A DNA stretch of 64,000 bases from Isurus oxyrinchus (Eukaryota), in NCBI GenBank assembly GCA_026770705.1, contig JANJGN010000544.1, positions 186,001 to 250,000 on the forward strand, in the 5' to 3' direction. Shown piece by piece: positions 2,380-55,260 of this stretch (position 1 is its first letter; each line of letters opens with the position of its first letter). The notes beneath the pieces are model-generated. The model searched no databases and was not told the origin of the DNA. It was given only the letters and a program-made list of their open reading frames with translations. Made by a program: the position numbers and the translations under genes.

Positions 2380-2413
2380 CTGCAGTAGCAAAGTTGGACC
2401 AGTGGGTGATTGC
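2380..2413 (+). promoter_or_regulatory. Decayed CTCF-like site in repeat terminus
   Basis: CTGCAGTAGC-aaagtt-GGACCAGTGGGTGATTG: good upstream module, degenerate core. Homologous to 18163 and 22602. Confidence 0.35.
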
Positions 2414-4529
2414 TTCCATCACATGAAGCAGGCGCTGTCTCAATTATTACTGCATTTGGCACTGTCTCTGTTCATATTAAATTAGACGCTGTTTCTGTTT
2501 CTATTACACTAGGACATGTCTCTAATCATATTAGAGAAGGTCATCTCTCAGTTGTTTCTGTAATTGGCTCAGTCACAGTTGTTTATGTACTGGACTAGGG
2601 CCACAATACAGTTGGCACTATCTCAGTCATGACTGCACTGAAGCAGATCTCGGCTGAAGTTACAATAAGCCACGCCCCAGTTGGCACTGCATTAGAGCTT
2701 GTCTCTGGTTATAGAAAACTAGAACATGTTTTTATTTGCATTTCACAAGACTCTGTCCCAGCTATTACTCCAGTAGAGCCTGCCACGTGTCTATCAAACT
2801 GGACCCTATCTCAGTTAATGCTGCACCAATACATGCCTCCATTCATATCACACAATTCCCTGTTTCTGCTGTTATTGTCCTTTATAATTACTTTGTTATT
2901 GCTGTACTTGTCCATATCTCTGTTTTTATTAATCTCGTACCTTTGCACGTATTTAATTTACCAGACACTGCGTCAGATTATGTTAAAAAGAACACTGAAT
3001 TATGTGAAACTCCATTAGACCATGTATCAGTTTTCTTAAACTGGATCCGGTCTGTGTTATTGCTACACTAGGCAGGTTCGTATTACACAAGATCCTGTCT
3101 CAATTATTACTGTACTCTGCACTGCCTCACTTATGTTTCACTAGGTCGCGGTCCTGCTTATAACACACTCAATCATGTCTGCACTTAAATTCCTCTAGAC
3201 CATATTTCAGAACAACTTACACTAGACTCTGTATCAGCCTGTATCACACTCGAACTTGTCAGCCTTTTTAACTAAAATGGATCCTGTCTCTGCAGAGACT
3301 TTGTCTTTGTACCTCAGTCTCTGCTTCTATTCCACTCTCCCTTTCCGTGTTTTTACTCCAGGAGATCATATCTGCCTCTCTTACACTGGCGGCACTCTCC
3401 GTTATTATGACTTAGACTCTATCTAGGAAGCAATTACTCTATGCCCTGTGCCTGTAATAACTGCCCTATTTCACTTGATGTTGATCCAGGCCCTGTATCA
3501 GTAACTACTGCATTAGCCCCGTCTCCACTATTACAGCAGTAAACCCTGTCTATGTTAATATAGCACTCGTCCCCGTCCCTGTTCATTGTGCACTAGGTCA
3601 CGTCTTTGCTTAAGTAACATTAAATGGTCTCTATTATTACTGCACTAGTAATGTCTCTGCTTAAATTGCACTAGGCCCTGTCTCAGTAATTACCACACCA
3701 GGCTCTGTCTCTGTTGTTACTACACTATTCTATGTTTCTATAAGGTGAACGTTGAGTTCGAAATGGGCCTCTGACTTTGGCCTAAAACTACAGATCTCCA
3801 ATTGATGGTTTGTTCCATGCAGCCCCTGATATTCAGTTTCATTACAGCCAACAGTATTACATATGAGACATCGCCTGTTCTGTGTGTCGGTGTGAAAAGA
3901 AATCATGCTGCATCATTCTGCAAATTTAAAAGATTTATCTTCACCAGAATGTTTCATTTTATTTTATTTTCTCTTTTTCAAACGGTAGCTACAGATCGTC
4001 TAATAATGTAAATATTCATTGATAGTTTTTTCCTGTTGTGTGCTCTTGTTTAGAAATTCATGTCCTACCAACCATTTCTTTGCTAAGACGGGGACATTTG
4101 TCACCACATTCACTTAATGTCTGTCATCTGTCTACCTGAGACAGCATCTTACTCACGGAAAAGTAGAGCTCTCTCTCTCTTTTTCTTTTTCTCTCTCTCT
4201 CTCCTTCTCTCTGTCTCCCTCGCTGTCTCTGAGAAATTGACCATTTATTTAAATCTCTGCTTTTCTAATAATGCTTTTTTGAAAAAATAAACTTAATAAA
4301 GAATAATTCCCCGACATTAACCTCAATGATAAACCACAGCCCATCTCCACCTTCAGCGAATGTGTTAAATCCCAAAGAGTTCCGACATTTTAATTGCAGA
4401 TAGTTTAATACTGCAACTATTTATTGATAACTATTCGGTTGTTTTCCATTGTTTACAAAGTGATGTCAGACTGACCATCTCGTTTCCAAGAATCGGCTTT
4501 TCTGTTCCCAAAGATCATTTGGAAAATTA

Positions 4530-5520
4530 TTATTTATTATTTCACGGGACGTGGGCGTGGTTGGCTAGTCCAACATTTTTATGCCCATCCCTAATTGCCC
4601 TTGAGAAGGTGGTGGTGAGATGCCTTCTTGGACCGCTGCAGCCCATGTGGTGCAGGTACACACACAGTGCTGTTTGGGCGGGAGTTCCAGGATTTTGACC
4701 CAGCGATAGTGAGGGAGGGGCGATACATTTTCAAGTCAGGATGGTGAATGACTTGGAAGGGAACTCCAAGGTGGTCGTGTTCCCATCTTTCAGCTGCCCT
4801 TACCCTTGTAAATGGTAGTGGTCGTGGGTTTGGAAAGTGCTGTCGAAGAAGCCTTGATGAGTTCCTGCAGTGCATCTTGTAGATGGCACACACTGATGCT
4901 ACTGTGTTCGGTGGTGGAGGGAGTAAATGTTCAAGGTGGTACGTGAGATGTCAAAAAGTGAGCTACGTTGTGTTGGATGGTGTCGACCTTCTAGTGTGTT
5001 GGAGCCGCGCTCACCCAAACAAATGGAGAGTCCATCACCCTCCTGACTTGAGCCTTGTAGGTGCCGGGCGAGTTTGGGTGTTCAAGAGGTGAATTACTCT
5101 CCTCAGCATTCTCAGCCTCTGATCTGCTCTTGTCACCACAGTATTTACATTGCTGGTACAGTTCAGTTTCTGCTCAATGGTAACGCCCACAACCTTGATA
5201 GTCGGGGATTCAGTAATACTAATTCCTTTAAATGTGTAGGGGAAATAGTTGGATTCTCTCTTGTTGGAAGTGGTCACTACTGGGTGTTTGTGTGGCACAA
5301 ATGCTGCTTGATACTTATCAGCCCAACTTCTATGTTGCCCAGGTCTTGCTGCATTTGGACATGGTGTGTTTCAGTATTATGATGAGTCATGAATGGTGCT
5401 GAACATTGTGTGATCATCAGCGACCATCCCCACTCCTGACCTTATGATGTGGCAGGGGAGGAGATTAATGAGGCAGATGAAGATGCTTGGGCCTAGGACA
5501 CTGCCCTGAGGAACTCAGGG
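4530..5520 (-). mobile_element. CR1/L2-group non-LTR retrotransposon (family B), RT C-terminus and 3' UTR
   Basis: Minus-strand peptides such as CAIYKMHCRNSSRLLRQH and GVTIEQKLNCTSNVNTV, a GVPQGSVLG-type motif near 5500, and the tail caccaccttctcaagggcaattagggatggg. Confidence 0.85.
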
Positions 5521-6689
5521 ATTAGAATCACTTCGAGAATGACGAGCAGCTTATTAGAAAATGTTCACCTCAGCAACTCACTGAAGCTCCTGATATTTAC
5601 ATCAAATGTGTGATGATTAATACAAGCGACGGAAAAAATGATCCTGTACGTTTACCTGACATGATAGTCACGCACCTGAAGTTATCTGATTTATTATTCC
5701 AATTGTTGGAAGGATTGAAACTCTCGTTGTTCTCTTTCTACGGTTTTTAACTGTGAGCTTTACAAATTCCACCCCGATCGGTCTAACCGTTTGTGGACTA
5801 ATTTGTCTGTCTCTTTAATTTGTATAATCTATGGAAACTTACCTGAAATGACTCAGGGCCTGGCGTAGCATAAAGAGATAAATGACCTGGCGCAATATAA
5901 AAGGAGATATGGGCTAGTGCAGCAATAACAGAGCTGGGCTCTACTGTAACAGAAACTGAGGTATCAGCTAGTACAGTCATAATAGAGACATTACCTGTTC
6001 AGTATTAACAGAGACATGATCTCGTGTAATATAAATAGAAATATGGGCTACTGAATTAACAATAGAGACAGGATTTCTGTAACATAGATAGAAATATGGA
6101 CCAGTACAGTCATAAGAGTAACCGTGGCTGGTACGTTATAAACATAGATATGGGCTACTTCAGTAACTGGAGATGCAGAACCTGCTGTAACATAAAGAGA
6201 GATATGAGTTTGTGCAGCGAGGACGCTAACTGTCCCTGGATTTAATATACAAATGAAACATGGGCTAGTTTGGGAAGAAGAGGGACTGGTCCTGATGATA
6301 CATTCGAAGATGCAAGTCTTTGTATCAGCAAAATGGAAAATAAATGCTTTGTATTATAAAACATGAAGAGGTCTCATTGAAGCAACTAACAGCAGCAGCG
6401 TCAACTTCAGCAATAAAAGATAAAAATTCCTATTGAAAACTGACAGGCGTAAGGTTTCCACTAATAATAATGATAGAAGTTTCCATTAGAAATTAAATGA
6501 TAGGTGGCCCCTTAATGCAACCATTGCAACGATTACACCTCAAGAAACAGGATGCCAGTGTCTATTGGCTCATGATACCACCTGGAAGATACTGGGTGAC
6601 ATTTTCCTCAGTGGAGCCACCCAGGTCGTCAAGATGGGAATTCTAATCTGAAATGTGGTTTTTCCGGCGTTAGAGCAAGATGGCATATT

Positions 6690-15617: not shown

Positions 15618-15653
15618 ATGCTACCCTCTGCTGGCACCTCACCGCCACTACAG
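15618..15653 (-). promoter_or_regulatory. CTCF-like site (upstream module + core)
   Basis: Minus strand CTGTAGTGGC-ggtgag-GTGCCAGCAGAGGGTAGCAT. Confidence 0.55.
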
Positions 15654-18122: not shown

Positions 18123-18125
18123 GCT

Positions 18126-18662
18126 GTCAGAAACAGTAAATTAAATCAGCATTTCACAGCATCTGCAATAGCAAGGTTTGTCCAGCAGATGGAACCGAAA
18201 CCGTGATTGTTCAAATTGCGTGAGGCAGGCATTTCTCGATGGTTACTGCATTGGCCCTGTCTCCACTCATATCAAACCACACACCGTGCCTGTTTAAATA
18301 ACACTAGGTCGTGTCATTGATCATATTAGAGGAGGCTATGTCTCACTTATTTCTGTATTCGGCCCAATCTCTTCTCAACCAAAGCCCTCTTTCTGTTCTG
18401 TGACACACTCACAGTTATGACTGCACGCAACCATGCCTCAGCTAACATGACAAAACTTCATGTCCCAATTGATAATACCTTGTACAATGTCCCCCTTTGT
18501 ACTAAACTGGAACATGTGCCTGTTTGCATTACACGAGGCTTTCCCTCAGTTATTACTTGAGTTGACCCTGCCATGTTTATATTAAGCTAGAGGAGGTCAC
18601 ACTGAATGCTGCACGAGTCCATGTTCTGTTTATAGAACACGATGCCCTGTCTCTGTTGTTAG
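18126..18662. repeat. Composite repeat terminus + 27-bp array (truncated by CR1 insertions)
   Basis: Collinear with 2345-2870 and 22570-23100. Confidence 0.6.
18163..18196 (+). promoter_or_regulatory. CTCF-like site in repeat terminus
   Basis: CTGCAATAGC-aaggtt-TGTCCAGCAGATGGAACC. Confidence 0.5.
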
Positions 18663-18664
18663 TA

Positions 18665-22548: not shown

Positions 22549-22569
22549 ATTTTTATCAATGACCTCACA

Positions 22570-25500
22570 AGCATTAACTGAAATTGGCATTTAAACGGCA
22601 TTGATAATAGCAACGTGTGTCCAGCAGACGGCAGTGAAGCCGAGGTATTTTACATTAAACAGGCATTCTCTCAATTGTTACCGAAATGGACGCTATCTCT
22701 GTTCACATTAAACTAGACTCCGTCTCTGATCATATCACAGGGTCATATTTCTGATGATTATACAGCAGGTCATGTCTATTTGTTTCCTTACTCAGCCTAA
22801 TCTCTGTTGTTGATATACCTGATCCGGGCCCTCTTTGTATTATATCAAACCTTCTCTGAGTTATGACTGCACTGAATCATCTCTCGGCTAACATGACATT
22901 AGGTCATGTCTCAATTGTTACTGAACTAGGCCCTGTCTCTTTTAATACTAAACCAGAACATGCTCATGGTTGCATCACAGGAGGCTGTGTCTCAGTTTTT
23001 ACTCTGCCACGTTTATATTGAACTTGACAATTTCACAGTTAATGCTGCGCATATAAATTTCTGTTTATATCACACAATGTCCTTGTACTATACCATGTCT
23101 CTCTCATGCCGCACTTGTCCAGGTTTCTATTGGTATTAATCTAGGTACTTGGCTGGGAGTGATTGCACTAGGTCTTATTTTAATTGATATTGCACAAGGT
23201 CCTTTATCAAGTTAAACTGCACTAGACCCTGTGTCAGTTTCTTTACACTAGATTCTGTCTCCTTTATTACTTCGTCAGTCCATGTCTCTGCTCAAATTAC
23301 ACACGCTACTGCCTCATCTATTCCTGCACCCAGCACTGCCTCACTTTATAATCTACGAGATCACATTTCTATTTACGTTACACTAGATCATCTCTCTGTT
23401 CATGTCAGTCTAGGTCACGTCTCTGCTGACATTCCGCTGGACGTTTCCTTGCAAGTGTTAATATAGAAATAGACCCTGTATTTTTGTATGCAGTGCAGAC
23501 CATGCCTGTGATTATTTTACACAAGGCCACGTCTATTACTAATACGCTGGACCTTGTCTCAGTAATTGTTAAACTTGACCCAGTTTCCTTTTCAATTATT
23601 GAGGATGTTGTAGCAATATTTGGTGCACTCGGCCCTGTCTCAGTATTGTTGCACCTGACCCTGTCTCGGTTTATATCCAAATGGATCCTGTCATAATATT
23701 ACACCAGTTCCTGCCTCAGTTATATCAGTGCTTGGCCCCATCTCAGTTGTTCTGGAACTATACCATGTCTCCTTTTGTATTACATACGGCAAAGTCCCAG
23801 TTCTTACTGCGCTGGACTAATGGTCCCTATACACAGCACTAAGCTTTGTTTTAGTTGTTGCTGCACTACTCCATGTCTCTGCTTATATTACGTTAGCCCT
23901 ATCTCTGATGTCTCACAAGTTACAGAAGATGCAGTCGCAGTTATTATTGCACTAGACTCTGCCTTTTTAATGCTAAACTGGAACACTTTTCAGTTTATAT
24001 TGCACTAGTCCTGATCTCTATTATTACTTCAGAAAACAATTTCTTAGCTTAAATTAAGCTAATCCAGACTCAGTTATTACTGCGCTAGACTGCATCCATG
24101 TGAAATATAGAGATAATATAAATAAAGTTAATGAGCTAGAAAATGGTCCCTGGCCTTGGCCAAAGATGGGCGGCATGAGATCGGCGACCAATTCAGCGCC
24201 TGATATTCAGTTTAATTGTAGTTGACAGTATCACGGATCATATGCCACCTGTTCTGTATGTTTTCATGAAGAGAATCATTCTTCACACTTGCACTGTAAT
24301 TCCTCGAATATAAATAATTTACTTTCACCATTGTTTGGCATTTCATGTTCTCTTATTCAAATTGTGGCTGTCGATCTTTTAATGCAGAAAAAAAAATATT
24401 GGTCCCATTTTCTACTCTGCCATTGTATAGAAAGTCATGGCATACATCGTTACTAAGATGAAGGTGCCAATTACCAATCTGTCGCTCGCCCCTCTATCTG
24501 ATGCAGCGCATAAGTCACTGTCGTCTGTTTGCCTGTCTGTCCGTTTCTCTCTCTCTCTCTCCATCACACACAAACACACACACACACCTCACGGTCTTTC
24601 TGCAACTTCAGTGAATGTGTTAACACCCCAAAAAAGAACAATTCATGTATTTCAACTGAAGATCGTTTAATATTATAATTATTTATTAATAACCATTCTG
24701 CTGTGTGCTCTTGTTTATAAAGTGATTCTAGACTGTTCAAGTCATTTCCCAGCTGGAGATATGTCTCATGTGATCAGACGGAATGTGGATTACATCACCT
24801 CGAGAATAAGGGCAGCTTATTGGCAAATGATCATAGCAGCATCTCACAGAAGTTCCTGTCTATACAGTGAGTCTGTGATCATTTGTGGAAGCAAAATGGA
24901 CAAATTGAAACTGTACCTGTTGTGAGGTAAATATAAATGTAATTCTATGCTTTATTACTCCTAGGGATGGAAAGGGTTGAAACATTCCTTGATCTCCAGG
25001 GAATTTTCAATCTTTTGTTTCTGCAACCTTTGAGTGTTACTTCCACTCTTTCCACTACAACTGCACTAATCCTTTTCGCACTGAATATTCTGCTTCTATG
25101 CTGTATGTTCCATGTAATGATTCAGGCTATCTGTAGCATAAACAGATGCAGGGTCGATGTATTACAAACAGATATATGGGCTGGTGCAGTATTAACAAAG
25201 CTATGGCCTGTTGTAATGGAAACAGAGATAACCTAGTGCGGTAATAGAGACAGGACCTGGTGTAATATAAGCAAAGATATGTACTACTGCATTAATTTCA
25301 GAGATAGGTCCTAGTGTAAAGATAGAAGAAATAAGTCTTTGTTTTATGATAATGGATACAATACTTTGCACAATGATATCCAAAATAGGTACCAGTGTAT
25401 CACTAAGTGATTACTGTCAAATTCATCAATGTTAGGAACATGTTACTGTTGAAAATGGACGGGAACAATGTTCCCATAATAATAGGCGTACATTAAGTTG

Positions 25501-25750
25501 GATGGATAAGCAGGTTATTTTCTGGCTGGAACAGTGGCGGGAGTGGAATGTAATAATTACCGAAATACGAGGCAATGCAATAAGAATGGACTCAGAGCCC
25601 AGTGTGATTACAGCAAAGGCATTGTTTAATTTTAGTGTAACGAGGACAGTGTTCGATCCAGTACTAACAGACGTAGATTGCAGTGTATTACTGAACACAT
25701 CACTCAGTCCAGTGTGCTGAGAGCACAGTCGGCGTCTAGTGCATCAAAAC
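22570..25750. repeat. Composite inverted repeat, copy 2 (terminus, array 22660-24100, core 24130-25080, inverted array 25130-25750)
   Basis: Core blocks align with copy 1, e.g. cctgatattcagttt at 3825 and 24199, ttcag.gaatgtgttaa at 4352 and 24607, and tcgagaat...gcagcttatt at 5533 and 24800. Confidence 0.65.
22602..22636 (+). promoter_or_regulatory. CTCF-like site in repeat terminus
   Basis: TGATAATAGC-aacgtg-TGTCCAGCAGACGGCAGTG. Confidence 0.55.
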
Positions 25751-29707: not shown

Positions 29708-29709
29708 TT

Positions 29710-30570: not shown

Positions 30571-30574
30571 ATAG

Positions 30575-31990: not shown

Positions 31991-32004
31991 CACTAATATC
32001 TTCA

Positions 32005-32310
32005 GGGGAGTCGTGCCAGGGTCACTCAGCTCCTGATCCCATTACAGCCTTGGTCTAAACATGGACAAATGAGCTAAAATCTAAAGTTGAGGTGAAAGTA
32101 ACAGCCTTTGATATGAAGGCAGCATCTGCCAGATTGTGGCATCAAGGAGCAAAACTGGAGTCAATGGGAATCAGCGGGGAAACTCTCTGTTGGTCGGTGT
32201 CATGTGTAACACAGATGAAGATGGTTGTGGTTGTTGGAGATCAATCATCTCAGTTATCCAGAACATCACTGCAGTTGTTAATTAGAGTAATGCCCTAGGT
32301 CCAACCGTCT
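32005..32310 (+). mobile_element. Family B LINE internal fragment
   Basis: VTAFDMKAASARLWHQG.KLESMGISGETL. Confidence 0.75.
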
Positions 32311-32394
32311 TTAGCAGAGTCTACAGCCAAATCAGAACATATCGAAGTGGCATGGCAGCATGTCATCCTCGATCCTCAGGAAATGCCTAAGAAG

Positions 32395-35300
32395 AAGGAG
32401 ACAGTCTCTAGATGAACTTAAACTGAGACAGAACATAGAGCAGTGATTACTGATCCAGGTTCTAGATTAATCTCTATGTCTATTACTGAAACAGGGGCGA
32501 GATTGGTATTGACTAAATTAGAGTCTAGTGCACTAATAACTTAACAGACCCTAAGTATTATAAGCGGAGTAGGGGCATTGTGCAGCAATTATAGATACAG
32601 TACCTCGGTTACTATAAACAGAGACAGGGCCTATCACAGTGAATGCTGATACAGGGCTTGGAATAAAACAACCTGAGACAGCATCTACCACAGTGATTAC
32701 AGACACAGGGCCTAGATTTATATAAACTGAGACAGGGTTTGTTAGAGTAATTACTGATGCAGGGCCTCGGTTAATATAAGCTGAGACAGGGCCTATTCCA
32801 TTGATTACTGATACAGGGCCGAGATTAATATAAATGGAGACAGGGCCTATTACATTGATTATTAATACAGGGCCGAGATTAATTTAAGCTATGACTGGAT
32901 CAATTACAGAGAGTACTGATGCAAGGTAAAGATTCATATAAACTGAGGCAGGGTCTATTACAGTGAATCCTGATACAGGGTCTATATTCATATAAACTGA
33001 GACAGGGTCAATCATAATAATTATTGATACAGGGTCTAAATTAATATCGGCTGTGGGCAGGGTCTATAACAGTAATTACCAATACAATGTCTGTATGAAT
33101 ATAAAAAGAGACATGGTATATCACAATGATTACTGATACAAGGTCTGTATTAATATAAACTGAGATAGAGACCATTACACTGATTATTGATACAAGGTAT
33201 GGATTGATGTCAGCAGAGGCTGTGCTTATCACAGTGACTACTCTTGCAAGTTTTGGATTAACATAAACTGAGACACGGTCTATTCCAATAATTACCAACA
33301 CAATTCCTGTATTAATATAAACTGACACAGCGTCTATTACGGAGATAACTGATACAAGCTATGAATACATATCAACTGAGGCAGGGTCTATTACATGAAT
33401 TCTGACACAGAGAATGAATTCATACCAACTGAAACACCATGTATTACAGTTGTTACTGATGCATTGTCTGGGTTAATATTGGCTGAGATGGGGTCTGTCA
33501 CAGTTATTAATGATAAATGGTCTAGATTAATTTGAATGGAGACAAGGTATATTACAGTGATTACTGATACAAATTATGTATTAATACAAACTGAGACAGG
33601 GTCTATTGCAATGATTACTGATACAAGTATGTATTCATATCAACTATTACAGGGCCAATTACAGTGATTACTGAAACAGGGACTGGATTAATATAAACAG
33701 GGACAAGGTCTATTAAAGTGATTACTGATATATGGTATGGATTAGAATAACCTGACAAAGCCTGTTGCAATGATTACTAATGCCGGGTCTAGATTAATAT
33801 AAACAGAGACAGGGTCTATTACAGCAATCACCAATACAAGATATGGATTGATATAAACTAAGTCAGGGTCAGCTTCAGTGATTACTGATGCAAGGGACTG
33901 ATTAATAGCAAATGAGACACAGTCTGTAACAGTGATTACTGTTACAATGTATGGACTGATGTAAACTGAGACAGGGTCTTTTACAGTGATTACTGAGACA
34001 ATTACAGTGATTAATGATACAAGTTATGGATTAATATCAACTGAGTCAGGGTCCATTACAGTGATTACTGATACAGGGTCTAGATGAATATAAACTGATA
34101 CAGGGTCTCTTCCAGGGACTACTGATGCAAGGTACGGATTAATAAAAAAATGAGACAGGGTTTATTACAGTGATTATTGATGCATTGTATGAATTAAAAG
34201 AAACTGAGACAGAGTATATTACAGTAATTATCAATACAATGTCCTTATTAATATAAACTGAGACAGAGTCTATTACTGTGATCAATGATACAAGGTGTGG
34301 ATTAATATCAACTGAGTCAGGGCCCATTACAGTGATTACTGATATAGGGTCTAGATCAATAGAAACTGAGGCAGAGATTATTACAGTGATTATCGGTGCA
34401 AGGTATGGATTAATATACACTGAGTCATGGTATGTTACAGTGATTACTAATACAAGGACTGGATTCATATCAACTGAGACAAGGTCTATTACAGTGATCA
34501 CTGATGCAATGTCTGGGTTAACATAAATTTGGACAGGATATATTCGAGTGATTATTGATACATGGTATTGATTAAAATTAACTGAAACAGTGTCTGTTAC
34601 ATTTATTAATGATAAATGGTCTAGATTAATAGAAACTGAGACAGGGTCTCTTCCAGTGATTACTGATTCAAGGTATGGATTAACATAAACTGAGACACTG
34701 TCTATCACAATGATTACTGATACAGGGTCTGCATTAATATAAAGCGAGACAAGGTCTATTACAGTTATTACCAATACAAGCCTTGGATGGATATAAACAT
34801 AGTCAGGGTCTACTTTAGTGATTACTGATACAAAGTATTGATGAATAGCAATTATGACAGGGTCTATTATGGTAATTACTGATACATGGTCTAGAATAAT
34901 ATAACCTGAGGCAGAGTCTATATCAGGGTCTATTAGTGATTACTGATACAGAGTCTAGATTAATATAAATGGAGACAGGATAAATCACAGTGATTATTGA
35001 TACAGGATCTACATTAATATAGACATAGCACCGGGTCTATTACAGTAATTGCCGATACAATGTCTATGTTAATATAAACTGAAACATGGTATATCTAAGC
35101 GATTACTGAAACAAGGTTGTACTAATATTAACTGAGACAGGGTCTGTTACAGTGATTACTGATACAAATTATGAATTAATATAAACTGAGACAGGGTCTA
35201 TTACAATGATTACAGATAAAAGGTATGGATTTGTACCAACTGCGATAGGGTTTATTACAGTGATTACTGATACAATGTCTGGATTAGTATAAACTGAGAC

Positions 35301-38300
35301 AAGGTCTTTTACTTTGATTACTAATACATGGTACTGATTAAAATAACTTGAAAGAGCCTGTTACAATGACTACCAACACAGGGCCTAGATTAATATAATA
35401 GACAGTGTCTATTATAGTGTTTACAAATACAAGGCTTGGATTGATATAAATTCATTCAGAATCAACTTCAGTGATTATTGATACAAGGTATTGATTAATA
35501 TCAGCTGAGACAGGGACTTTTATTGTGATTACTGAGACAAGGTCTGCATTAATATAAACCAAGGCATGATCTATTACAGTGGTTACTGATACAAGGTGTT
35601 GATTAACATCAACTGAGTCAGGATCAATTTCAATGATGACTGATACAGGATCCAGATGAATATAAACTGTGTCAAGGTCTATTGGAGTAATTACTGTTAC
35701 AGATAATGGATTAACATAATCTGAGACAGGGTGTAATACAGTCATTCCTGATGAAGGGTATGGATTAATAAACTGATCAACAGAGTTTATTGCAGTGATT
35801 AGTGATACTAGTAATGGCTTAATATCCACTGTGAAAGGGTGTATTACATTAATTACAAAAAAAACTATGCCTGTATTACTATAGACTGAGAGATGGTATC
35901 TAACAGTTGTTTTTGATACAATGTATGGATTAATATCAACTGAGGCAGGGTCTATTACAGTGGTTATTAAGCACAGTCTAGATTAGTGTAAATGGAGACA
36001 GGGTCAATCACAATGATTATTGATACAGAATCTAGGTGAATACAGACTAAAGACATGGCCTATTGCAGTAATTACCAATACAATGCCTGTCTTAATTAGC
36101 GATTACTGATATAAAGTATGGATTAATATCAACTGAGACAGAGCTTGTTATAGTGACTACAGATACAAGTTTTTAGATTAACAATTCTGAGACATGATCT
36201 ATTATGGTAATTACCAATGCAATGTGTGTGTTTATATAAACTGAGACAGTGTATATTACAGAGCATACTGATGCAAGGTATGGATTCATAACAATTGATA
36301 GAGGGTCAGTTAAAGTGATTAATGATACAGGGTCTGGATTAATATAAATTGAGACAGGGTCCATTACAGTGATTACTGATACAAGTTATGGATTAATATA
36401 AACTGAGACAAGGCCTATTACAATGATTACTCATATATGGTATGGATTAAAATAAACTCAGACCGGGTCTGTTACATTGATTTCTGATACAGGGTCTAGA
36501 TTAATATAAACTGAGGCAGGGTCTATTAGAGTAATTACCTACACAAGATCTGAATTAATATAAACTGAGACAGGGTATATTACTGTGATTACCAATAGAA
36601 GGTCTGTATTGATATAAACTAAGTCAGGGTCAGCATCAGTGATTACTGATTCAAGGTTTTGATTAATATCAACTGAGACAGCACCTATTATAATGATTAG
36701 TGATACAGGATCAAGCTTAATATAAACTGAGAGAAGACCTAATACAGTGATTACAGATGCAAGGCATGGATTAATATCAACTGAGATAGGGTCTATTACA
36801 GTGATTGCTAATACAGGATCTAGATTAATATAAACTGAAACAAGGTCGACTACAATGATTTTTGATACAGGGTCGAGATTAATATAAACTGAGTCAGCAT
36901 CTATTAGACTAATTACTACTTCACGGTCGGTATCAATATAAACTGAGACAGGGTCTATTACACTGATTATTGATACAGGGTCTAGATTAATATAAGTGGA
37001 TACACTGTCAATCAGAATGATTATTGATATTGGATCTACATTAATATGGACTCAGGACAGTGTCTATTTCAGTGAGTAATGATACAAGTTATCGATTAAT
37101 ATAAACTGAGACAGGTGCTATTACAGTAATTACCAATGCAATGTCCGTATTGATATGAACTGAGACAGGGTCTATTACACTGATTACTGATTCAAGGCCT
37201 GCATTACCATAAACAGAGACATAGTCTATTGCATTGATTACTGATACAAGTTTTGGATTAATATAATCTGAGACAGGGTATATTGCAGTGTTTACACTGA
37301 TACAAGATATGGATTCATATCAATTGAGATAGAGCCTATTACAGTGATTCCTGATACAGGGTCTGTATTAATATGAACTGAGAAAAGGCCTACTACAGTG
37401 ATTATTGTTATATGGTATGAATTAAAATAAACTGAGACAGGGTCTCTTACAATGCTTACGGATACAGAGTCTGGATTAATTAAAACAGAGGCAGGCTCTA
37501 TTACAGTGGTTGCCAATAAAAGGCTTTGATTGATCTAAACTGAGTCAGGGCCTACTTCAGTGATTACTGACACAAGGTATTGATTAATTTCAATGGAGAC
37601 AGGGTCTGTTGCAATGATAAATGTTGCAATGCATGGATTGAATTAAACTGAGACAGGGTCTTTTACAGTGATTAATGAGACAAGGTCAGTATTAATATAA
37701 ACTGAGACAGGGTCTATTACGGTGATTACTGATACAGGGCCTGGAATAATGTAAACTGAGACACGGTCCATTACAGTGATTACTGATACATGGTATGGAT
37801 TAATAAAAAATGAGACAGGTATTATTACAGTAATTACTGATACATGGCATGGATTAAAATAAACTGCGACAGTATCTGTTAAAGTTCTTACTGATACATG
37901 GTCTTGATTCAGGTTAATTGAGACCGTGCCTCTTTCAGTGATTAATAATACAAGGTCTGGATTGATATAAATTGAGACAGGGTCTATTCCAGTCATTATC
38001 AAAATTAGGTCTGTCTAATATAGATTTAGTCAGCATCTACTTCAGTGATTACTGATACAAGGTATTGATTAATATCAACTGAGACAGGGTCAGTTACAGT
38101 GGTTATTGGTAAAATATTTGGATTGATATAAACTGAGATAGGGTCTTTTACAGTCATTAATGATACAAGGCCTGTATTAATATAAAATGAGACATGGTCC
38201 ATTACAGTGATTACTGATACAAGATGTGGATTAAAATAAAGTGAGACAAGGTCTGTTAAATTTATTATTGATACATGGTATGGATTAAAAGAAACTGAGA

Positions 38301-41300
38301 CAGAATGTATTGCAGTGATTACCAATACAAGACCTGAATTGATATAAACTGAGATACAGACTATTCCAGCCATTACCAAGACAAGGTCTGTATTAATATA
38401 AACTGAGTTAGGGTCTACTTCAGTGATCACTGATTCAAGGTATTAAGTAATAACAACACAGATAGGGTCTGTTGCAGTGCAACAATGTATGGATTGAAGT
38501 AAACTGAGTCAGGGTCTTTTACACTGATTACTGAGACAAGGTCTGTGTTAATGTAAAGTGAGACAGGGTCACTAACATTGTTTGCTGATACAAGGTATGG
38601 ATTAATTTCAACTGAGGCAAGGCCTATTACAGTGATCATTGATACAGGGTATCTATTTACATAAACTGAGACAGGGTTTATTACAGTGACTACTGATACA
38701 AGTTATGGATTCATAACAACTGAGACAGGGTCTATTGCAGTGATTACTAATGCTGGTTATGAGGATAATATATACTGAGACAGAGTGTATTACAATGATT
38801 ACTGATACATAGTATGTATTAAGATTAGCAGAGACATGTTCTATTACAGTGATTACCAACACAAGGCCTGTATTGATATAAACTGAGCCACAGTCTACTT
38901 CAGTGGTCACTGATACAATGCATTGATTAATATCAACAGAGACCGGGTCTGTTACAGTGATTACTGTTACAATGTATGGATTGAAATAAACCGAAAGAGC
39001 ATCTTACACAGTGACTAATGATAAAATGTCTGTATTAATATAAATGGAGATAGGGTCTCTTTTAGTGGTTACTGATACAAGGCATGGATTAACATCAATT
39101 GAGGTAGGGTCAGTAATTACTAATACAGGACCTAGATTAATATAAACTGAGGTAAGGCCTATATCAATGATTACTTTTACAATATATGGATTACAATAGA
39201 TGTACAAAGGGTCTATTTCACTGATTACTGTACATGGCCTGTATTAATATAAACTGAGGCAGGGTCTCTTTCAGTGTTTACTGATACAAGGTATGGATTA
39301 ATATCAATTGAGGCAGGGTCCATTACAGTGGTTACTGATACAAGGCATGGGTTAATATAATATGAGACAGAGTCTATTACAGTGAAAAAACTCAGCAGGT
39401 CTGGCAACATCGGCGGAGAAGAAAAGAGTTGACACTTCGAGTCCTCATGACCCTTCAACAGAACTGGCGAATCCTAGGATCATCTTTCCATGAGGACTCG
39501 AAACATCAACGCTTTTCTTCTCTGCCGATGCTGCCAGACCTGCTGAGTTTTTCTAGGTAATTCTGTTTTTGTTTTGGATTTCCAGCATCCGCAGTTTTTT
39601 GTTTTTATCTATTACAGTACTTACTGATACAAGGTCTGGGCTGGTCTAAATTGAGACAGGGTGTATTACTGCGACTACTGATACATGGTCTGAATTGATA
39701 TAATCTGATACTGGGTGTAGTACAGTAATTTCTGATGCAGGGCCTAGGTTAATATACACTGAGACAGGGTTCATTACATTGAACACTGATACAAGGTCTG
39801 TGTTAATATAAGGTAAGGCAGAATCACTTTCAGTGATTGCTGATAAAATGTATGGATTAATATCAAGTGAGGCAAGGTCTCTTTCAGTGGTTACTGATGC
39901 AACATATGGATTAATAGCAACTGATGCAGGGTCTATCACAGTGATTACTGATACAGGGTCTAGATTAATATAAACTGAGACAGGTTCTGTTACAGTGTTA
40001 ATGATGCAAGGTCTGGACTGGTGTAAACTGAGACAGCATGTTTTATAGTGAATACTGCCAGAGGGTCTGTATTGATATAATCTGAAACTCGGTACAGTAC
40101 AATGATCACTGATACAGGTTCTGGATTAATATAAACTGAGACTGGGTCTAGTACAATAATTACTGATACAGTTCTGGATTAATATAAACTGAGACTGGGT
40201 CTAGTACAGTGATTACTGATACATGGTATGGATTAAGATAAACTGGAAAGGATCAATTAATGTGGTTACCGACATAAGGCCTGCATTAATATAAACTGAG
40301 AATGGGTCAATTACATTAATTAATGATACAGGGCCTAGATTAATATAAACTGAGACAGGCTCAGTTACAGTGATTACTGATAAATGGTGTCAATTAATTT
40401 AAGCTTACACAGAGTCTATTACAATGATTACTGATACAGGTTGCAGGTTATTATAAACTGAGACAAGGCCTATTGAATTGATTACCAGTACAATATCTGC
40501 ATTAATATAAACAGCGACAGTGTCAGTTCAAGTGAATACTGATACAAGGCATGGATTAATATAAATGGAGACAGTGTGTATTACTGTGAATACTGATACA
40601 GGTTATGGGTTAATATAAACTGAGACAGGCTCTATTACAGCATTCACCAATACAATATCTGTGAATATATAAACTGAGAAAGGGTATTTTGCAGTGATTA
40701 TTGATTCAAGGCATGGATTAATATAAACTGAGACTGGGTCTATTATAGTGATTGCTGATACATGGTATTGATTAACATAAATTGAGACAGGGTCTATTAC
40801 AGTGATAACCAATACATGGTCTGGGCTGATATTAACTGAGACAGGGTCTATTCCAGTGATTAACAAGACAAGGTCTATATTGATATAAAGTGTGTCAGGG
40901 TTGTTACAGGGATTACTGATACAAGGTATTGATTACTATCAACTGAGGCAGGGTCTCTTATGGTGATTACTAATACAAGGTTTGTATTAATAAAAACTGA
41001 GACAGGGTCTCTTTCAGTGCTTACTGTTATAAGACATTGGTTAATATAAACGGAGACAGTATGTATTATAGTGAATACTGAAACAGGTTATGGGTTATTA
41101 TAAACTGAGACAGCCTCTATTACAGAAATTACCAATAAAATATCTGTATTTATATAAATTGAGAAAGGGTATTTTGCAGTGGTTATTGATACAAGGCATG
41201 GATTAACATAAACTGAGACAGGTTCTATTACAGTGATTACCAATACATGGTCTATATTGATATAAAGAGTGCCAGGGTGTTTACAGGGATGACTGATACA

Positions 41301-42130
41301 AGGTATTGATTACTATCAACTGAGACAGGGTCCCTTACAGTGATTACTAATACAAGGTTTGTATAATATAAACTGAGACGGTCTCTTTCAGTGCTTACTG
41401 ATACAAAACATGGATTAATATAAACTGAGGCAATCTGTATTACAGTGAATACTGAAATAGGTTATTGGTTAATATAATTTGAGACAGGCTCTATTATAGC
41501 ATTCACCAATACAATGTCTGTATTTATATAAACCTAGAAAGGGTTTTTACAGTGAATGTTGATACAATGCATGGATTAATATAAACTGAGACTGGTTGTA
41601 TTAAAGTGATTACTGATGCATGGTATTGATTAACATAAACTGAGACAGGGTCTATTACATTGATTACCAATACATGGTCTGGGCTGATATTAACTGAGAC
41701 AGGGTCTATACCAGTGATTGACAAGACAAGGTCTATATTGATATAAAGTGTGTCAGGGTTTTTACAGGGATTACTGATACAAGGTATTGATTACTATCAA
41801 CTGAGACAGGGTCTCTTACAGTGATTGCTAATACAGGGTTTGTATTAATATAAACTGAGACAGGGTCTCTTTCAGTGGTTACTGATACAAGATATTGATA
41901 ATATCCACTTAGGCAGGGTTTATTACAGTGATTACTGATACAAAGCCTGTATTCATATAAAGAGACGGAGGGTCTAGTGCAGGAATTACTGGTAAACGGC
42001 CTAGATTAATATCAACTGTTACAGAACAGGATTACTGCTACTGGGCCCAATTTAATAAAACTGAAGCAGGGCATAAAGCAATAATCTCTGACACAGCACC
42101 GAGTCTAAGTCAACCAGGGATAAATCTCGT
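32395..42130 (+). repeat. Satellite with 54-bp monomer (2 x 27 bp), roughly 175 copies
   Basis: Consensus TTAATATAAACTGAGACAGGGTCTATT-ACAGTGATTACTGATACAGGGTCTAGA. The halves share ACTGA(G/T)ACAGGGTCTA. Confidence 0.95.
39384..39607. mobile_element. Penelope-like hairpin element with 11-bp target-site duplication, inserted in the satellite
   Basis: ~64-bp inverted arms at 39386-39449 and 39489-39552. TCTATTACAGT flanks both sides (39373-39383, 39608-39618). Contains a hammerhead-like core. Confidence 0.7.
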
Positions 42131-42763
42131 GTGGAAGCAATTGATGCAGCTCTTTGTGGAGTATTGAGAGGGACAGAGAGTAATGCAGTTATAATTAATA
42201 CATAAACTAGTGTAATATACAGAGAGATAGGGTTTAGTGTTACATCATTAGAAACATCTTATAGCGCAATATAATAAGTGTATTAATATCGAATTGACAT
42301 AAGCCCCAGCATCACTGATCCATTTGCCAGTGGAACAGCTTCTCCCTAAATATTCAAAAACATCCCTCACACATTGGACCATTTCTGATAAACCTATCCT
42401 AAGATTCTCGTTGATGAGGAGAGCAATCCCAGTTTTTTGTTGTGCAGAGAGTGAGGGGCAGTGCAAACTTAAGTTCCAGGAAATCCTCTGTCTTGTTACT
42501 TCGAAATTGGCATTTAACAATCGTTGACACTGTTATATGGGGCCAATGGAAATAAAGTGCACTGTTACAACAGGGTCAGGCTAAGATACCGGGCTACAAG
42601 GCAACGGATCCCTTACAACTAAATTGATGTGTGTAAGACTGGAGCCTGCTCCTGAACTTTATATACATAGAACCAAATGCTATAATTTCAAAATAGCAAT
42701 TGCAACATGTCCAGTGCCTTGCATTAGTGGCTCTCCTACATGGACGGTAACCACTACTGAACT

Positions 42764-45439: not shown

Positions 45440-48020
45440 CCTTTATATTACACCAGATCCTGCCTCAATTATTACTCTTTGAGTTCAAGTCACAGTTTTA
45501 GTTTTGCTGAAACCTGTGAAATTTATGGATGCATAATCTGGTATTTGTATTTTTATTACACTAGGCTCTGACACAATTAACTCTGTGCTAATCAAGCCTC
45601 TGTTTCAGGCCGGCCCCCGAATCAGTTATTATTACATTAGAGCATTTTGCTATTTATATTATATAACGCTCTGTTTCAGTTATTAGTGAACCATACACCG
45701 TGTCTCTATATGTTGCACTCGACCACGTCTCAGTTATTACTATACTAGAACATGTATGTGTTAATATTACCCTGGATCCTGTCTCTGTTGTTACTGCACT
45801 GGAACCTGTCTCCATTTATAATGTTTTACATTATTGTTTCTGTTAAAATTGCACTGGAAAATATATCTCTTTATATTTTACAGTGGGCCCTTTCTCAGTT
45901 ATTACTGCCCTATACCATGTTTCTGTTAAGCTAACACTTTACCCACGCCAGTAAACATTGAATTGTATCATGGCAAACGTATTGGAAACTGGTGAGGAAA
46001 TAGTGAAGTTAACGCGCAGCACAAAACAATGGAAACAGAAACATTTTTTTTAATTGAATTTCATTGAGAGTGGAAAGTGTTACATTCCATTCCAAGTGAG
46101 AGAATTACAGATTTATTATGCTCACGTCAGGTAGAGGTACAGTTGCATTTTCACCGCCTCTTGCACAGATCATCACACACTCCAGTGACGCACAAATGAT
46201 CACTTGTCAACAAACAGAGAGAATGGTGGGTAGATGTCCTTTATTCACCATGTGATTTAATCCACTTTCAAACTGAATTCTGAGCGCAGCTAAACTCACT
46301 TTGGAATCTAAATAGGCATTTTCCACACAAGAGCTCGAAAAAGACGTCAGCATCAAGAAATGTTAACGATAATAGATGATCTGAAATTGCTGGATGGATG
46401 GTTCGAAATATAGATAGATAGACTGACCGCCAAACAGACAGGTACACAGCTAGATGGGTTGACAGATAGAGAGACTGAGATACACAACATCTAGCGTAAT
46501 ATAGACAGTTTAATGCTAAATAACCTTTTCGGTGGCTCGTATGATACAAACAGGGAGATGGTCTTGTATAATGTGAAGAGATGTATGCATCAGTTCAATT
46601 ACTTACTCCAACAGGGCCTAGTGTAAAACATGAATTGAGACTAGGTCTTTTGCACTGCGATCTGAGACAGAGTCCTGTGTAATTTAAAGGAAGGCATGAC
46701 CCAGTCATTACGTATCAACACCTTTCATGGTCTTAAATACCTCGATCAAAGCCCCTCTTAACATCTTCTATTCTAAGGAAAACGATTCAAGATCTTCAAG
46801 GTCTATTAACATTCGGATCAATCTCCTCTTCATCCTCTCTGCGACCTTCAAATGCTTTATAAAACAGAGTTCCTGGAATAATTATGTACAATATACATGG
46901 AAACACAGTAGGGAGTACTTTAACAAATGTTGTTTTTAATCATTCACTAGGCTGAAGTATTTATTTCTCTCTATTCATCCAGGAGATGTGAGCGTCTCTG
47001 ACACGGCCAGCATTTCCCCCATGCTCCGCTGTCCTGGAACTGAATATCTGGCTAGACATTTTTAGAGTCGGAGGATAGTTAGGAGTGAACCACGTGCTGT
47101 GGGCCTGGAGTCACATTTAGGCCAGACTGGGGAAGGATGCATATTTACTTCACCGAATGTTCATTACTGAACCAGATGCGTTTATAGCAATGAAAATTGT
47201 AACGATCCAGTTCCATTTCCATTTTTTTATTCATTCATGGGATTTGTGCGATTCCAGCTGAACCAACATTCAATAGCCAAACACAATTGCCCTTGAGAGG
47301 GTGTTAGTGAGCAAACCGCTTGTACTGCTGCAGTCCACGTGCTGTAGGGACACCCACAGTGCTTCTAGGAAGGGAGTTGTATGATTTGGACCCAAGGATA
47401 GTGAAGAAACAGGGACTTTCCATTGTTGTTGCTGTGCTTCTGCTGCCCTTGTTGCCCGGAGAATTGGGGAATATTCCACCACACTCCTGACATGTGCCTT
47501 GTAGTTTGTGGACAGGTATTTGCAGAATTCCCAGCTTCCGAACGGCTCTTGTCTCAATCGCATTTAAATTTCGCCAGCTGCTGTGGTGGGATTTGAATCC
47601 ATGTCCCCAGAAGATGAGCCTGGGCCTCTGGGCTAGTGATGAGTACTTGGGACGTCATAACTTTCAAGGCTATGGGCCAAGTGCTGGTAAATGTGATTAG
47701 GTAGGTAGGTCAGGTGTTTCTCACGTGCCGGTGCAGACTCGATGGGCCGAAGGGCCTCTTCTGCACTGTGAGTCTGTGAATCTGTGGCAGAGCTACAGCC
47801 AGGTCGTGCCTGACTTAGGATCCAGTGTAATGTAACCAGAGATAGGGCCTGGTATAATTTAAATGGTAAGTTGCTCCAATGCAGTAATAACTGAAACAGA
47901 GCCTGGTTAAAATAAACTTAAACATGGTCCAGTACGTTAAAAACAGGGACAAGTTCTATGAAATATAAACATAAACAGTATAGCGCATCAATAACTGAGA
48001 AACCGCCTTATGTAACACAA
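45440..48020. repeat. Composite inverted repeat, copy 3 (core inverted relative to copies 1 and 2), interrupted by CR1, SINE and family B pieces at 46705-47790
   Basis: Array at 45440-45940. Reverse complement of 46120-46180 (gtgtgatgatctgtgcaag...ctgtacctctacctgacgtga) matches 5605-5665. Opposite-sense arrays at 46590-46700 and 47820-48020. Confidence 0.55.
47660..47790 (+). mobile_element. CR1 (HER1/HE1-like) 3' tail
   Basis: ggtgcagactcgatgggccgaagggcctcttctgcactgt, typical of elasmobranch CR1/HE1 tails. Confidence 0.75.
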
Positions 48021-48529
48021 ACAGATATTATATGAGGTCAAATTTCAACAAAGCTTTTTGGAATTTAAACGTAGTTAATTTTGTACATCTGAACTATTAA
48101 AAGTGCCCTCAATATCAGTAATAGGAAACGTGCATCTCCCACACTCATCAAAACACAGCTGACATATAAAGGTACGTTTCGGAAATACGGAATACGGAAT
48201 ACGGAAGTACGTTTCGGAAACCGCCTCCCCGCCCCCCCCCCCCCCCCCCCCCCCCCCAACCTTACATGTTTTTTTCCCAAAGGGACTCCAGATGAAGAGC
48301 AAGGTGGTTAACTTTGAATTTCCCTCTAAACATTCTCAGTGTGCAGTCATTTTTATTAAACGGCCACGAGAATCAGCAACCTGAGCACAGTCAGTAAAGC
48401 CAGATGGCATCAACCGAGGCACAGGCAAAGACACAGGCAGTCCAATTAACTGTATAAAATTCTCTGAACGATCTTCTGTGGACATCTCCCACAGCTGAGA
48501 AACACGGAACGCAGGCTAGCGGAAACACA

Positions 48530-49312: not shown

Positions 49313-49324
49313 TAAAAACTAAAC

Positions 49325-50438: not shown

Positions 50439-50471
<33 letters not shown>

Positions 50472-51475: not shown

Positions 51476-51479
51476 ATGA

Positions 51480-53595: not shown

Positions 53596-53631
53596 GCACT
53601 GTCACCTGGTGGCCAATCATTGCCATTACTG
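53596..53631 (-). promoter_or_regulatory. CTCF-like site in inverted repeat terminus
   Basis: Minus strand CAGTAATGGC-aatgat-TGGCCACCAGGTGACAGTGC. Confidence 0.6.
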
Positions 53632-54289
53632 CTATCGTGAAAATGTCGACGTTCGTAATGTTGTTGTTGGAAACGTATCAACAAACAAATTTGCACTAAT
53701 ATTCCAGTCAACGCATTTTTAATGAAAGGGAATTAAATGCTGTGAAAATAACTGGTGAAGCAAATCCGCTTTGTGGATGTAAATTGCAAACATTAGGAAT
53801 AATGTGTTTTGTATGGACACACTCACAGACACAAATAGACACAAATTCAGATGTTCAGGCTCGGTCACACAACCAGTTGCCACGGAAAACGTGAATGTAA
53901 AGGCCCTCAGGAGAAACATTCCTTAACATTAAAACACGGTGTACAATAGCCACAACAGAGATTTCCACTATTCAGTATAAACTGCAGTGCACTCTGGCTC
54001 ACCTTGACTTCAGTCCCTCAATCCAGTTCAAATTTCCGAGATTGTCATAAGATTCGACCAGTACTTTCAACAAAACTGTTACATTACACCAGAGCAATGG
54101 GAAATTGTACACAGCTCCTGATGGCTGTGACAAAGACTAAACGTATTTTACAACAAACATAAATCCATCTTCCCACCCAGTCAAATATATGTTCTTTAAT
54201 TATTATGAGACATACTTCTCCCTTCATCCATCTGCCTATTTACCTATCACAGAAAAATGCTGTACCACAATAACTGACATTGGCAATAA

Positions 54290-55260
54290 ATTAATATAAA
54301 CAGAGTGCCCAGTGCTGTCATTACAGAAAGGGGGCCTTATTTAACATGAACAGCGATAAGGACTCCTGCACTCTGAGCAGTTTAGTCCATGAATAACTAT
54401 GGCAGACCCTGTCGAATATAAACAGGGAGATGGCCTCATACAATTTAAAGGTGGGCATAAAATAGTGCAGAAATAAAGGAGAAAGTGTCTAGTGTAATAT
54501 AAATAAGGACATGGATGAGTGCAATATAACCAGACACATGCTTCAGTGCAGCAATAATTGAAAAAGGCCCTAGTGTAAAGGATGGAAGGGCACAGAGTTT
54601 ATTGCACTAATGTCCGTGACTGGACCCAGTAGAATATGGACGGAGACATGGTCAGGTTATGGCCTTGCAAACCCCTTCAGAAACTTGAACACATCTTTTA
54701 AAACATCTCTTAACTCTCTCTGCTCTAGGATGCTATTTCTATCGTTTTTCCACATAACGGAAGCCTCTCACCCCATTCTGGTAATACCTTCGACAGCATC
54801 TTCAGAACCGGAGAGCTCTGCGACATAGAAGGACAAGGACAGCAGGTGAATGGAAGCACCAACACCTGCTAGTGCCGCTCCAAGTCACACACAATATTCT
54901 GATTTGGAAATATAGATTTTTTTCCTTCGTTGTTATTGAGTCAAAACCCCAAAGCTCCCTTCCCACCAGCACTGTTTTTGGATTTGAAACACACACAAGG
55001 CGGCTCACCAACACATCTCCGGGGCAATTAGGTATGGCTAGTAAATGTCGGCCTTGACAGAAATGTCAACATCTGAGAATGAAGTAGAACTAGCAATAAC
55101 TGAGTGAAGGTCTGCTGTGATATAAACATAGACATGCTATGGAGCAGTAATAATTGAGGCAGTGTATGTATGTTTCCATGGAAGCAATCGCGCTAGCACT
55201 GCCACATGGTGGCGAAAGATTGCCATTGCTGTTACTGTAAAATGCCTTCATCAGTTATTG
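54290..55260. repeat. 27-bp array ending in an inverted composite-repeat terminus (family B tail inserted at ~54800-55085)
   Basis: 55143-55250 is the reverse complement of the terminus seen at 2345-2452 and 18126-18250. Confidence 0.6.
55196..55231 (-). promoter_or_regulatory. CTCF-like site in inverted repeat terminus
   Basis: Minus strand CAGCAATGGC-aatctt-TCGCCACCATGTGGCAGTGC. Confidence 0.5.

What the first reader, a model, noticed from the sequence alone, without database searches (positions are those of the whole stretch)
2380..55231. Repeat-borne full-length CTCF-like sites that could insulate the Ig minilocus
Seen: five termini of the composite repeat carry an upstream module (CTGCARTAGC-like), exactly 6 bp, then a core (CCASCAGRTGGCAG-like). 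Forward sites are at 2380, 18163 and 22602; reverse sites are at 53596 and 55196. The module spacing is kept even though the flanks have diverged heavily. Forward and reverse sites converge around the 10-kb satellite, and the reverse pair sits 4-5.6 kb upstream of the VH leader. Established: CTCF zinc fingers 9-11 read an upstream module 5-6 bp from the core; CTCF sites bound RAG scanning in mammalian Igh; shark clusters rearrange within the minilocus. Inference: a repeat-distributed insulator system that partitions shark Ig clusters.
Basis: partly seen in the sequence, partly recalled or inferred. Interest (0 to 1): 0.75.

Follow-up and report, generated by a model that had tools for sequence, protein, structure and literature searches.

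The report
Repeat-borne CTCF sites upstream of shark antibody gene
An old, locally copied repeat upstream of a shark antibody gene cluster carries strong matches to the binding motif of the chromatin-organising protein CTCF in four of its five heads; these likely mark a chromatin boundary, but binding and any role in keeping antibody gene rearrangement inside the cluster are untested.

Summary
Partly confirmed. The five sites are homologous heads of an old composite unit (head, degenerate 27-bp array, ~1-kb middle, opposite array); the 10-kb satellite is an expanded array of a headless copy. Four cores rank 1, 2, 4 and 5 of 127,964 positions under a recalled CTCF matrix (p 3e-8 to 1.5e-6). The core at 2380 is broken by a 14-nt deletion. 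The upstream module is intact in 2 of 5 heads, no head has both parts perfect except 18163, and the module is no better kept than neutral. The cores are: P(at least 4 of 5 strong) is at most 0.0015 at the flank rate, but up to 0.14 at half that rate. Two missed two-part sites, 15619 (reverse, strong) and 57808 (forward, weak), turn the pattern into two divergent pairs around a convergent loop. Read contigs show no high-copy signal at the reverse pair and suggest the region is duplicated with the V gene, though some paralogous contigs skip one site. Best reading: likely real CTCF loop anchors forming a boundary upstream of a V-D-D-J cluster whose V is frameshifted. Confinement of RAG is speculative. 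New member of a known kind.

The parts
2346..2414 (+). Head s1: upstream module 2380-2389 complete, core 2396-2414 broken by a 14-nt deletion; probably a dead site
   Evidence: 1.9 bits, rank 113
2420..6280 (+). Body of composite unit 1: 27-bp array (+) 2420-3740, middle 3740-5850 with a LINE insertion about 4531-5516, opposite-strand array 5844-6280
15619..15653 (-).
   Evidence: 17.9 bits, rank 3; flank p 0.07-0.29
18129..18197 (+). Head s2: module 18163-18172 complete, core 18179-18197; the best two-part site; followed by a truncated array to about 18700
   Evidence: (19.5 bits, rank 2)
22567..22636 (+). Head s3: module 22602-22611 degraded (4/6), core 22618-22636 strong
   Evidence: (17.6 bits, rank 4)
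22650..25750 (+). Body of composite unit 3: array (+) 22650-24090, middle 24090-25120, opposite array 25113-25750; 65-73% like unit 1
29713..42270 (-). Expanded 54-bp (2 x 27) satellite, same unit as the arrays, reverse orientation, no head found; interrupted about 30562-32390; assembly gap at 29564-29707 beside it
45443..48050 (-). Headless reverse copy of the composite unit (array, middle 45989-46389, array)
53597..53664 (-). Head s4: core 53597-53615 (best in window), module 53622-53631 at 5/6
   Evidence: 21.8 bits, rank 1
53715..55170 (-). Body of the unit headed by s5: start of middle 53715-53841 and array 54200-55170
55197..55264 (-). Head s5: core 55197-55215 with one change at a near-invariant position, module 55222-55231 at 5/6
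   Evidence: (16.0 bits, rank 5)
55611..56015 (+). Middle-only remnant of a forward unit
57793..57826 (+).
   Evidence: (10.1 bits, rank 11)
59180..59652 (+). IgH leader exon 59180-59225 and VH exon 59352-59652 with a 1-nt frameshift near 59497; 23-spacer RSS at 59653
60071..60902 (+). D1 60071-60084, D2 60459-60469 and JH 60855-60902 with their RSSs; no constant exon recognised in the 3.1 kb left of the window

Best explanation
An old ~4-kb composite unit, copied several times in this region, carries a CTCF-type motif in its head, and four of the five heads keep a strong core that likely binds CTCF and would anchor cohesin loops, forming a predicted chromatin boundary upstream of the Ig V-D-D-J cluster. 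Shown: homology of the heads, matrix scores, orientation, unit structure. Inferred: the unit spread by local duplication plus inversion, which set the +/- layout; selection then kept the ZF3-7 core while the ZF9-11 module drifted. With the two non-head sites the order is -(15.6 kb) +(18.2) +(22.6) [satellite] -(53.6) -(55.2) +(57.8) then V: two divergent pairs, the grammar of domain borders, around a 31-37 kb convergent loop that would hold the satellite. The right-hand pair would stop extrusion arriving from the left and so separate the satellite/LINE/tRNA region from the Ig cluster. Whether this matters for RAG is a further, weaker inference.
For: Ranks 1, 2, 4, 5 of 127,964. Sites with core >=10 bits and complete TGYART at a 5-6 nt linker: 3 observed (s2, s6, s7) against a mean of 0.013 and a maximum of 1 in 300 block-wise dinucleotide shuffles. 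Neutral evolution along a tree built from flanks (length 1.67-1.96): P(>=4 of 5 cores >=16 bits) 0 to 0.0015. Ten parsimony changes among the four live cores fall mostly on tolerant positions, including the S and R positions: P 0.012-0.15 for the summed score, 0.009-0.055 for the minimum, over 8 possible ancestors. Lamprey CTCF binds core plus upstream motif and some repeats carry the sites (PMC5504073); skate TAD borders have oriented CTCF motifs (PMC10115646); shark CTCF has 11 fingers (PMC7471279). In 4 runs, contigs of several depths and 80-97% identity cover both the reverse pair and the V exon, with no peak over the heads, consistent with co-duplication with the cluster.
Against: The matrix is recalled, not fetched, and TGYART was chosen after seeing s1-s6 (s7 was found afterwards). 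Five related copies are few; at half the flank rate P rises to 0.013-0.14; the position test left out dead s1. Raw identity of the cores (0.58-0.84 among s2-s5) is little above the upstream flank (0.59-0.76). Each live head core has one costly change. Module position 9, the C read by ZF9 in the crystal structure (PMC10484683; my mapping of its numbering), is G in all six 6-nt-linker sites. One head is dead and at least three units have no detectable head; the motif-blind search is weak (leave-one-out E 0.05-8). Some paralogous contigs jump over s4 (53504-53741) or s5 (55141-55369), letters between not known. The adjacent V is frameshifted. No binding or contact data.
Confidence: 0.55

Rival explanations
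1. Inherited relic: the ancestral head held a CTCF-like motif, and the copies are decaying neutrally with no present function.
For: s1 core deleted, modules degraded in 3 of 5, one costly change in each live core; module retention fits neutrality (P 0.05-0.55); at half the flank rate core retention is unremarkable (up to 0.14); neighbouring V is frameshifted.
Against: At the flank-derived rate P<=0.0015; changes favour tolerant positions; two further two-part sites without demonstrable homology lie in the window.
Confidence: 0.17
2. Ig-specific insulator: s4/s5, with s7, act like IGCR1 and stop RAG-bearing loop extrusion from leaving the minilocus, one such set per cluster.
For: s4/s5 face upstream like CBE1, and s7 faces downstream like CBE2 (passages); the region appears to be duplicated with the V; 96 of 97 nurse shark rearrangements were within a minilocus (PMC2435157).
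Against: Segments lie within 1.3 kb and clusters far apart, so no block is needed; no other V remnant (tblastn) lies in the 59 kb upstream, and the three other RSS-like hits there (25724, 32635, 35827) have 2-3 mismatches and no segment recognised; IgM/IgW V to TCRdelta trans-rearrangements are called common (PMC12227049); some paralogous contigs skip s4 or s5; s7 is weak; no downstream site seen.
Confidence: 0.15
3. The sites bound the satellite or the tRNA-gene region on the left and lie next to the Ig cluster by circumstance.
For: Four of the seven sites are 36-57 kb from V; a tRNA-Ser gene ends 33 nt before head s1 and a tRNA-Tyr lies at 8133-8227; the convergent loop encloses the satellite; a CTCF-bearing tRNA tandem repeat is a proposed boundary in human (PMC4041453, search listing and abstract start only).
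Against: The head beside the tRNA is the dead one; no tRNA match near the other heads. This rival overlaps the best explanation: same sites, other target.
Confidence: 0.08
4. The conserved element is an E-box (CANNTG) for a bHLH factor such as E2A; the CTCF match is a by-product.
For: Three of the four live cores hold CANNTG at core positions 8-13, and the CTCF-damaging change in s5 keeps it (sequence). E-box use at Ig loci is recalled knowledge.
Against: CCA outside the E-box is invariant in s1-s6; s3 and s6 lack the E-box yet score 17.6-17.9 bits; an E-box does not explain the module at a fixed linker.
Confidence: 0.05

Closest known systems
Repeat-dispersed CTCF sites: lamprey hAT-Tip100 #274 and other repeats; mammalian retrotransposon-borne sites (PMC5504073, passages)
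   Same: A repeat family carries a CTCF motif in a fixed part of the unit and multiplies it.
   Different: Here copies are 55-75% alike, local, tied to a 27-bp minisatellite, with no high-copy signal at >=80% identity and no transposon hallmark identified; binding is not shown.
Two-part (upstream module + core) CTCF insulator sites such as IL3 +2.9 kb (PMC12885311; PMC10484683)
   Same: 10-nt module, short linker, TGG-like triplet, 15-nt core.
   Different: Linker 6 rather than the usual 5 (2-7 allowed); module ends in GC rather than CC/TC; complete in only 2 of 5 heads; core has T at position 12, not the G run.
Mouse Igh IGCR1 (CBE1/CBE2) and 3' CBEs (PMC10293834)
   Same: Upstream-facing sites, with a weak downstream-facing one, lie 5' of the D-J region.
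   Different: They lie upstream of V, not between V and D; there is no V array to hold back; no 3' sites seen in the window.
Human 1q23.3 tRNA tandem repeat with CTCF site (PMC4041453, listing only)
   Same: Multi-kb repeat unit with a CTCF motif near tRNA genes.
   Different: Only one head adjoins a tRNA gene; units are old, diverged and partly inverted.

Membership tests
CTCF binding site (core) | Significant match to the ZF3-7 core matrix | tested here: met
   4 of 5 heads p<=1.5e-6; s1 fails (7e-4); matrix recalled
CTCF binding site (core) | Occupancy by CTCF in vivo or in vitro | not testable with these tools
   No ChIP or EMSA data reachable
CTCF binding site (core) | Core better conserved than flanks | tested here: inconclusive
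   P<=0.0015 at flank rate, 0.013-0.14 at half rate; raw identity only slightly higher; 5 copies
Two-part (U + core) CTCF site | Upstream module at a 5-6 nt linker | tested here: inconclusive
   Register met in 5 of 5; TGYART complete in 2 of 5, together with a strong core in 1 of 5
Two-part (U + core) CTCF site | ZF9/ZF10-read bases (T at module position 7, C at position 9) | tested here: not met
   T kept in 5 of 5, C is G in 5 of 5 (sequence; numbering mapped by me from PMC10484683)
Enhancer-blocking insulator / domain boundary | Divergent CTCF motifs at the border | tested here: met
   s6/s2 and s5/s7 are divergent pairs about 2.6 kb apart; s7 is weak
Enhancer-blocking insulator / domain boundary | Insulation in Hi-C or a reporter | not testable with these tools
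   No contact data
IGCR1-type RAG scanning barrier | Position between V and D | tested here: not met
   No site above 7 bits between V and J; sites lie 1.4-5.6 kb upstream of the leader
IGCR1-type RAG scanning barrier | Loss changes V(D)J usage | not testable with these tools
   Needs editing in B cells
Transposable element | High genomic copy number, defined termini, target-site duplication or transposase | tested here: inconclusive
   No depth peak on heads at >=80% identity (depth is not copy number); opposite arrays at both ends recall foldback elements (recalled) but a head is seen at one end only; no genome held; target-site duplications not searched
Elasmobranch IgH minilocus | Leader-V-D-D-J with 23/12 RSSs within about 2 kb | tested here: met
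   V frameshifted; isotype not determined (IgW resemblance recalled; no C exon recognised)

The most novel reading that the evidence does not exclude
Each shark IgH minilocus is duplicated together with its own repeat-derived CTCF border, an IGCR1-like divergent set placed upstream of V, which makes every cluster a separate loop domain and so explains intra-cluster rearrangement and one-cluster-at-a-time activation.
Probability: 0.15. Interest if true: 0.8.

Novelty: new member of a known kind. Interest (0 to 1): 0.45.

Why it matters
How 15-200 shark IgH miniloci rearrange independently and achieve heavy-chain exclusion is a long-standing question (PMC2435157). These sites give exact positions and orientations to test a chromatin-boundary answer, and shark CTCF binding maps are reported to exist (PMC7471279 introduction). 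If the sites prove bound, they also show a route to CTCF-site expansion by local duplication of a minisatellite-bearing unit. Repeat-borne CTCF sites as such are well known. My searches (open-access library only) listed no paper on CTCF sites at shark Ig clusters or on this 27-bp repeat.

Tried and rejected
No whole genome is held, so the copy census and genome-wide conservation test could not be run. Metagenome scan with a 21-letter satellite pattern: 0 matches. Earlier-findings look-ups: nothing in 4 of 4. Sequencing runs: no RNA holder listed. Protein search with the first half of V found nothing; the second half gave 2 hits, 86% and 82%, neither naming an isotype. Rfam: only 2 tRNAs at gathering score; 3 further weak matches taken as chance. 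Idea that the upstream module is just an inverted satellite unit (which contains TGCAGT): no shared phase across the heads, only weak hits beside s5; not supported, not excluded. Idea that s6 or s7 are decayed heads: flank p 0.07-0.76; not shown. Idea that the satellite is coding: one minus-strand frame has 24 stops in 2344 codons against 29 expected from column frequencies, no Pfam hit for its longest ORF; rejected. A head at the right end of the big satellite or at 48050: none found. A Pfam scan of all six frames upstream was not obtained, so constant-domain or other gene remnants there are untested beyond 12 chosen ORFs and 250-720 (0 families). One search showed 40 of 1286 difference rows, 12 of 126 indel rows and 15 of 47 joints; none of the difference or indel rows shown falls in s4 or s5, which says nothing either way.
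Full report
Setting. The window is elasmobranch DNA: the second half of the V exon is 82% identical to a Scyliorhinus torazame predicted protein. It ends with an IgH leader (59180), a VH exon with a 1-nt frameshift near 59497, two D segments and a JH with 23/12-type RSSs, all within 1.3 kb from V end to J. No constant exon was recognised; the isotype is not determined (an IgW resemblance is my recall). No genome was held.

The observation. All five sites exist in the stated register, and their upstream flanks are homologous (p<=0.001 each). With a CTCF core count matrix recalled from memory, four cores rank 1, 2, 4 and 5 of 127,964 positions (16.0-21.8 bits; p 2.7e-8 to 1.5e-6), while s1 at 2380 ranks 113 because about 14 nt are missing in or behind its core. 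The upstream module is complete (TGYART, my choice after seeing the sites) in s1 and s2 only; the full two-part pattern is met within 3 mismatches by 2 of 5. Position 9 of the module is G in all heads, where the crystal structure reads a C (PMC10484683 passages; mapping mine).

Missed sites. Rank 3 is a reverse site at 15619-15653 with a complete module and the same 6-nt linker but no array and no significant flank homology. A weak forward core at 57808 has a complete hexamer at the usual 5-nt linker and a TGG. Sites with core >=10 bits and a complete hexamer number 3, against a mean of 0.013 and maximum of 1 in 300 shuffles. Two-part CTCF-type motifs in this window are therefore not chance.

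What the repeat is. A 27-bp unit profile and a profile of the middle segment define a unit of about 4 kb: head, long array, middle of about 1 kb, short opposite array. Forward copies lie at 2346-6280, 18129-18700 (truncated), 22567-25750 and, as a middle only, 55611-56015. Reverse copies lie at about 29250-42270 (headless; its array is the 10-kb satellite; the middle match at 29247-29301 is weak, E 0.002), 45443-48050 (headless), 53715-55264 and the lone head s4. Convergence on the satellite thus follows from unit orientation, most simply duplication plus inversion (inference). Laying contigs of 4 of the 24 listed runs on 53200-59800 at 80% likeness gave no depth peak over s4 or s5, only over a LINE piece, and joints of similar depth (117-127 in X7) run from 53.5 kb to the V exon, which I read as a collinear paralogous cluster. 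One X1 contig spans s5 with 2 differences in 301; one X6 contig spans s4 with 30 in 1035; one X1 contig spans s4 with 76 differences and 8 gap letters in about 500. Against: joints skip s4 (53504-53741) and s5 (55141-55369) in some contigs, letters between not known. Depth is not copy number, and most rows were not shown.

Constraint. On a tree from flanks and linker (total length 1.67 or 1.96), neutral change from the best-case ancestors leaves at least 4 of 5 cores at 16 bits with P 0 to 0.0015 in 20,000 runs; at half the rate P is 0.013-0.14. Placing the ten parsimony changes at random gives P 0.012-0.15 (sum) and 0.009-0.055 (minimum), with s1 left out. The module is not distinguishable from neutral (P 0.05-0.55). 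So the core is probably under selection; the kept 6-nt spacing is not independent evidence.

Mechanism. CTCF reads the core with ZF3-7 and the module with ZF9-11 (PMC10484683, PMC12885311 passages); the two-part motif is bound in lamprey (PMC5504073 passages); skate TAD borders carry inward-facing CTCF motifs, with divergent pairs at insulation minima (PMC10115646 passages); shark CTCF has 11 fingers (PMC7471279 passages). The live sites read - + + [satellite] - - + V. I infer two borders around a 31-37 kb loop, the right one lying 1.4-5.6 kb upstream of the Ig leader. The reverse pair faces as IGCR1 CBE1 does, the stronger RAG-scanning block in mouse (PMC10293834 passages). But it lies upstream of V, no V remnant lies upstream in the window, nurse shark miniloci are at least 120 kb apart and may not need long-range contacts (PMC2435157 passages), and trans-rearrangement to TCRdelta is common (PMC12227049 passages). 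I put CTCF-bound generic boundary at 0.55, Ig-specific RAG barrier at 0.15, neutral relic at 0.17, tRNA/satellite border at 0.08, E-box at 0.05.

Papers: for PMC10484683, PMC12885311, PMC5504073, PMC10115646, PMC2435157, PMC10293834, PMC7471279, PMC12227049 and PMC13470930 I saw keyword passages only, no supplements and no figures (the motif logos are in figures); PMC4041453 only as a search listing. Six searches bearing on prior description listed no account of CTCF at shark Ig clusters or of this repeat; subscription papers are not covered.

Verdict. A real, partly decayed set of CTCF-type sites carried by an old local repeat beside a shark IgH cluster: new member of a known kind, with a directly testable link to an open question. 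Interest 0.45.

Noticed in passing
window 59490-59500: The VH exon has a 1-nt frameshift in framework 2: pseudogene or assembly error. An X6 contig over 59330-59800 shows 1 gap letter, place not listed.
   Followed up: partly
window 2231-2312 (+), 8133-8227 (-), about 1179-1216 (-): tRNA-Ser gene with several apparent departures from the usual sequence, ending 33 nt before head s1; intron-length tRNA-Tyr called with an ATA anticodon; and a 3' half of a tRNA-like sequence with a B-box (tRNA-Glu by recall).
   Followed up: partly
window 1068-1119 and 2547-2598: An exact 52-bp inverted copy (100%) in otherwise old DNA, 1.4 kb apart, flanking the tRNA-Ser and head s1; unexplained, possibly recent conversion or an assembly effect.
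   Followed up: no
window 32482-42270: The minus strand of the satellite has one nearly stop-free frame giving 9/18-residue hydrophobic repeats up to 266 aa; explained by the unit's composition.
   Followed up: yes
window 56560-57200: A second, degenerate repeat of roughly 60 bp seen by eye upstream of the V promoter; not reported by Tandem Repeats Finder.
   Followed up: no
window 280-650: Exon-like, coding-looking stretch on the minus strand with stops; no Pfam family in three frames.
   Followed up: partly
window 17785-18115 and 22200-22540: Heads s2 and s3 are each directly preceded by what looks like the 3' end of a CR1-type LINE with its short tail repeats (read by eye).
   Followed up: no
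window 55197-55217: s5 is partly palindromic and also scores 13.1 bits on the + strand (rank 6), so its orientation may be less strict.
   Followed up: no
window 42503-42519: A 15-nt match to the upstream flank of head s3, in forward orientation just right of the satellite, without module or core; not significant (E 2.6).
   Followed up: partly
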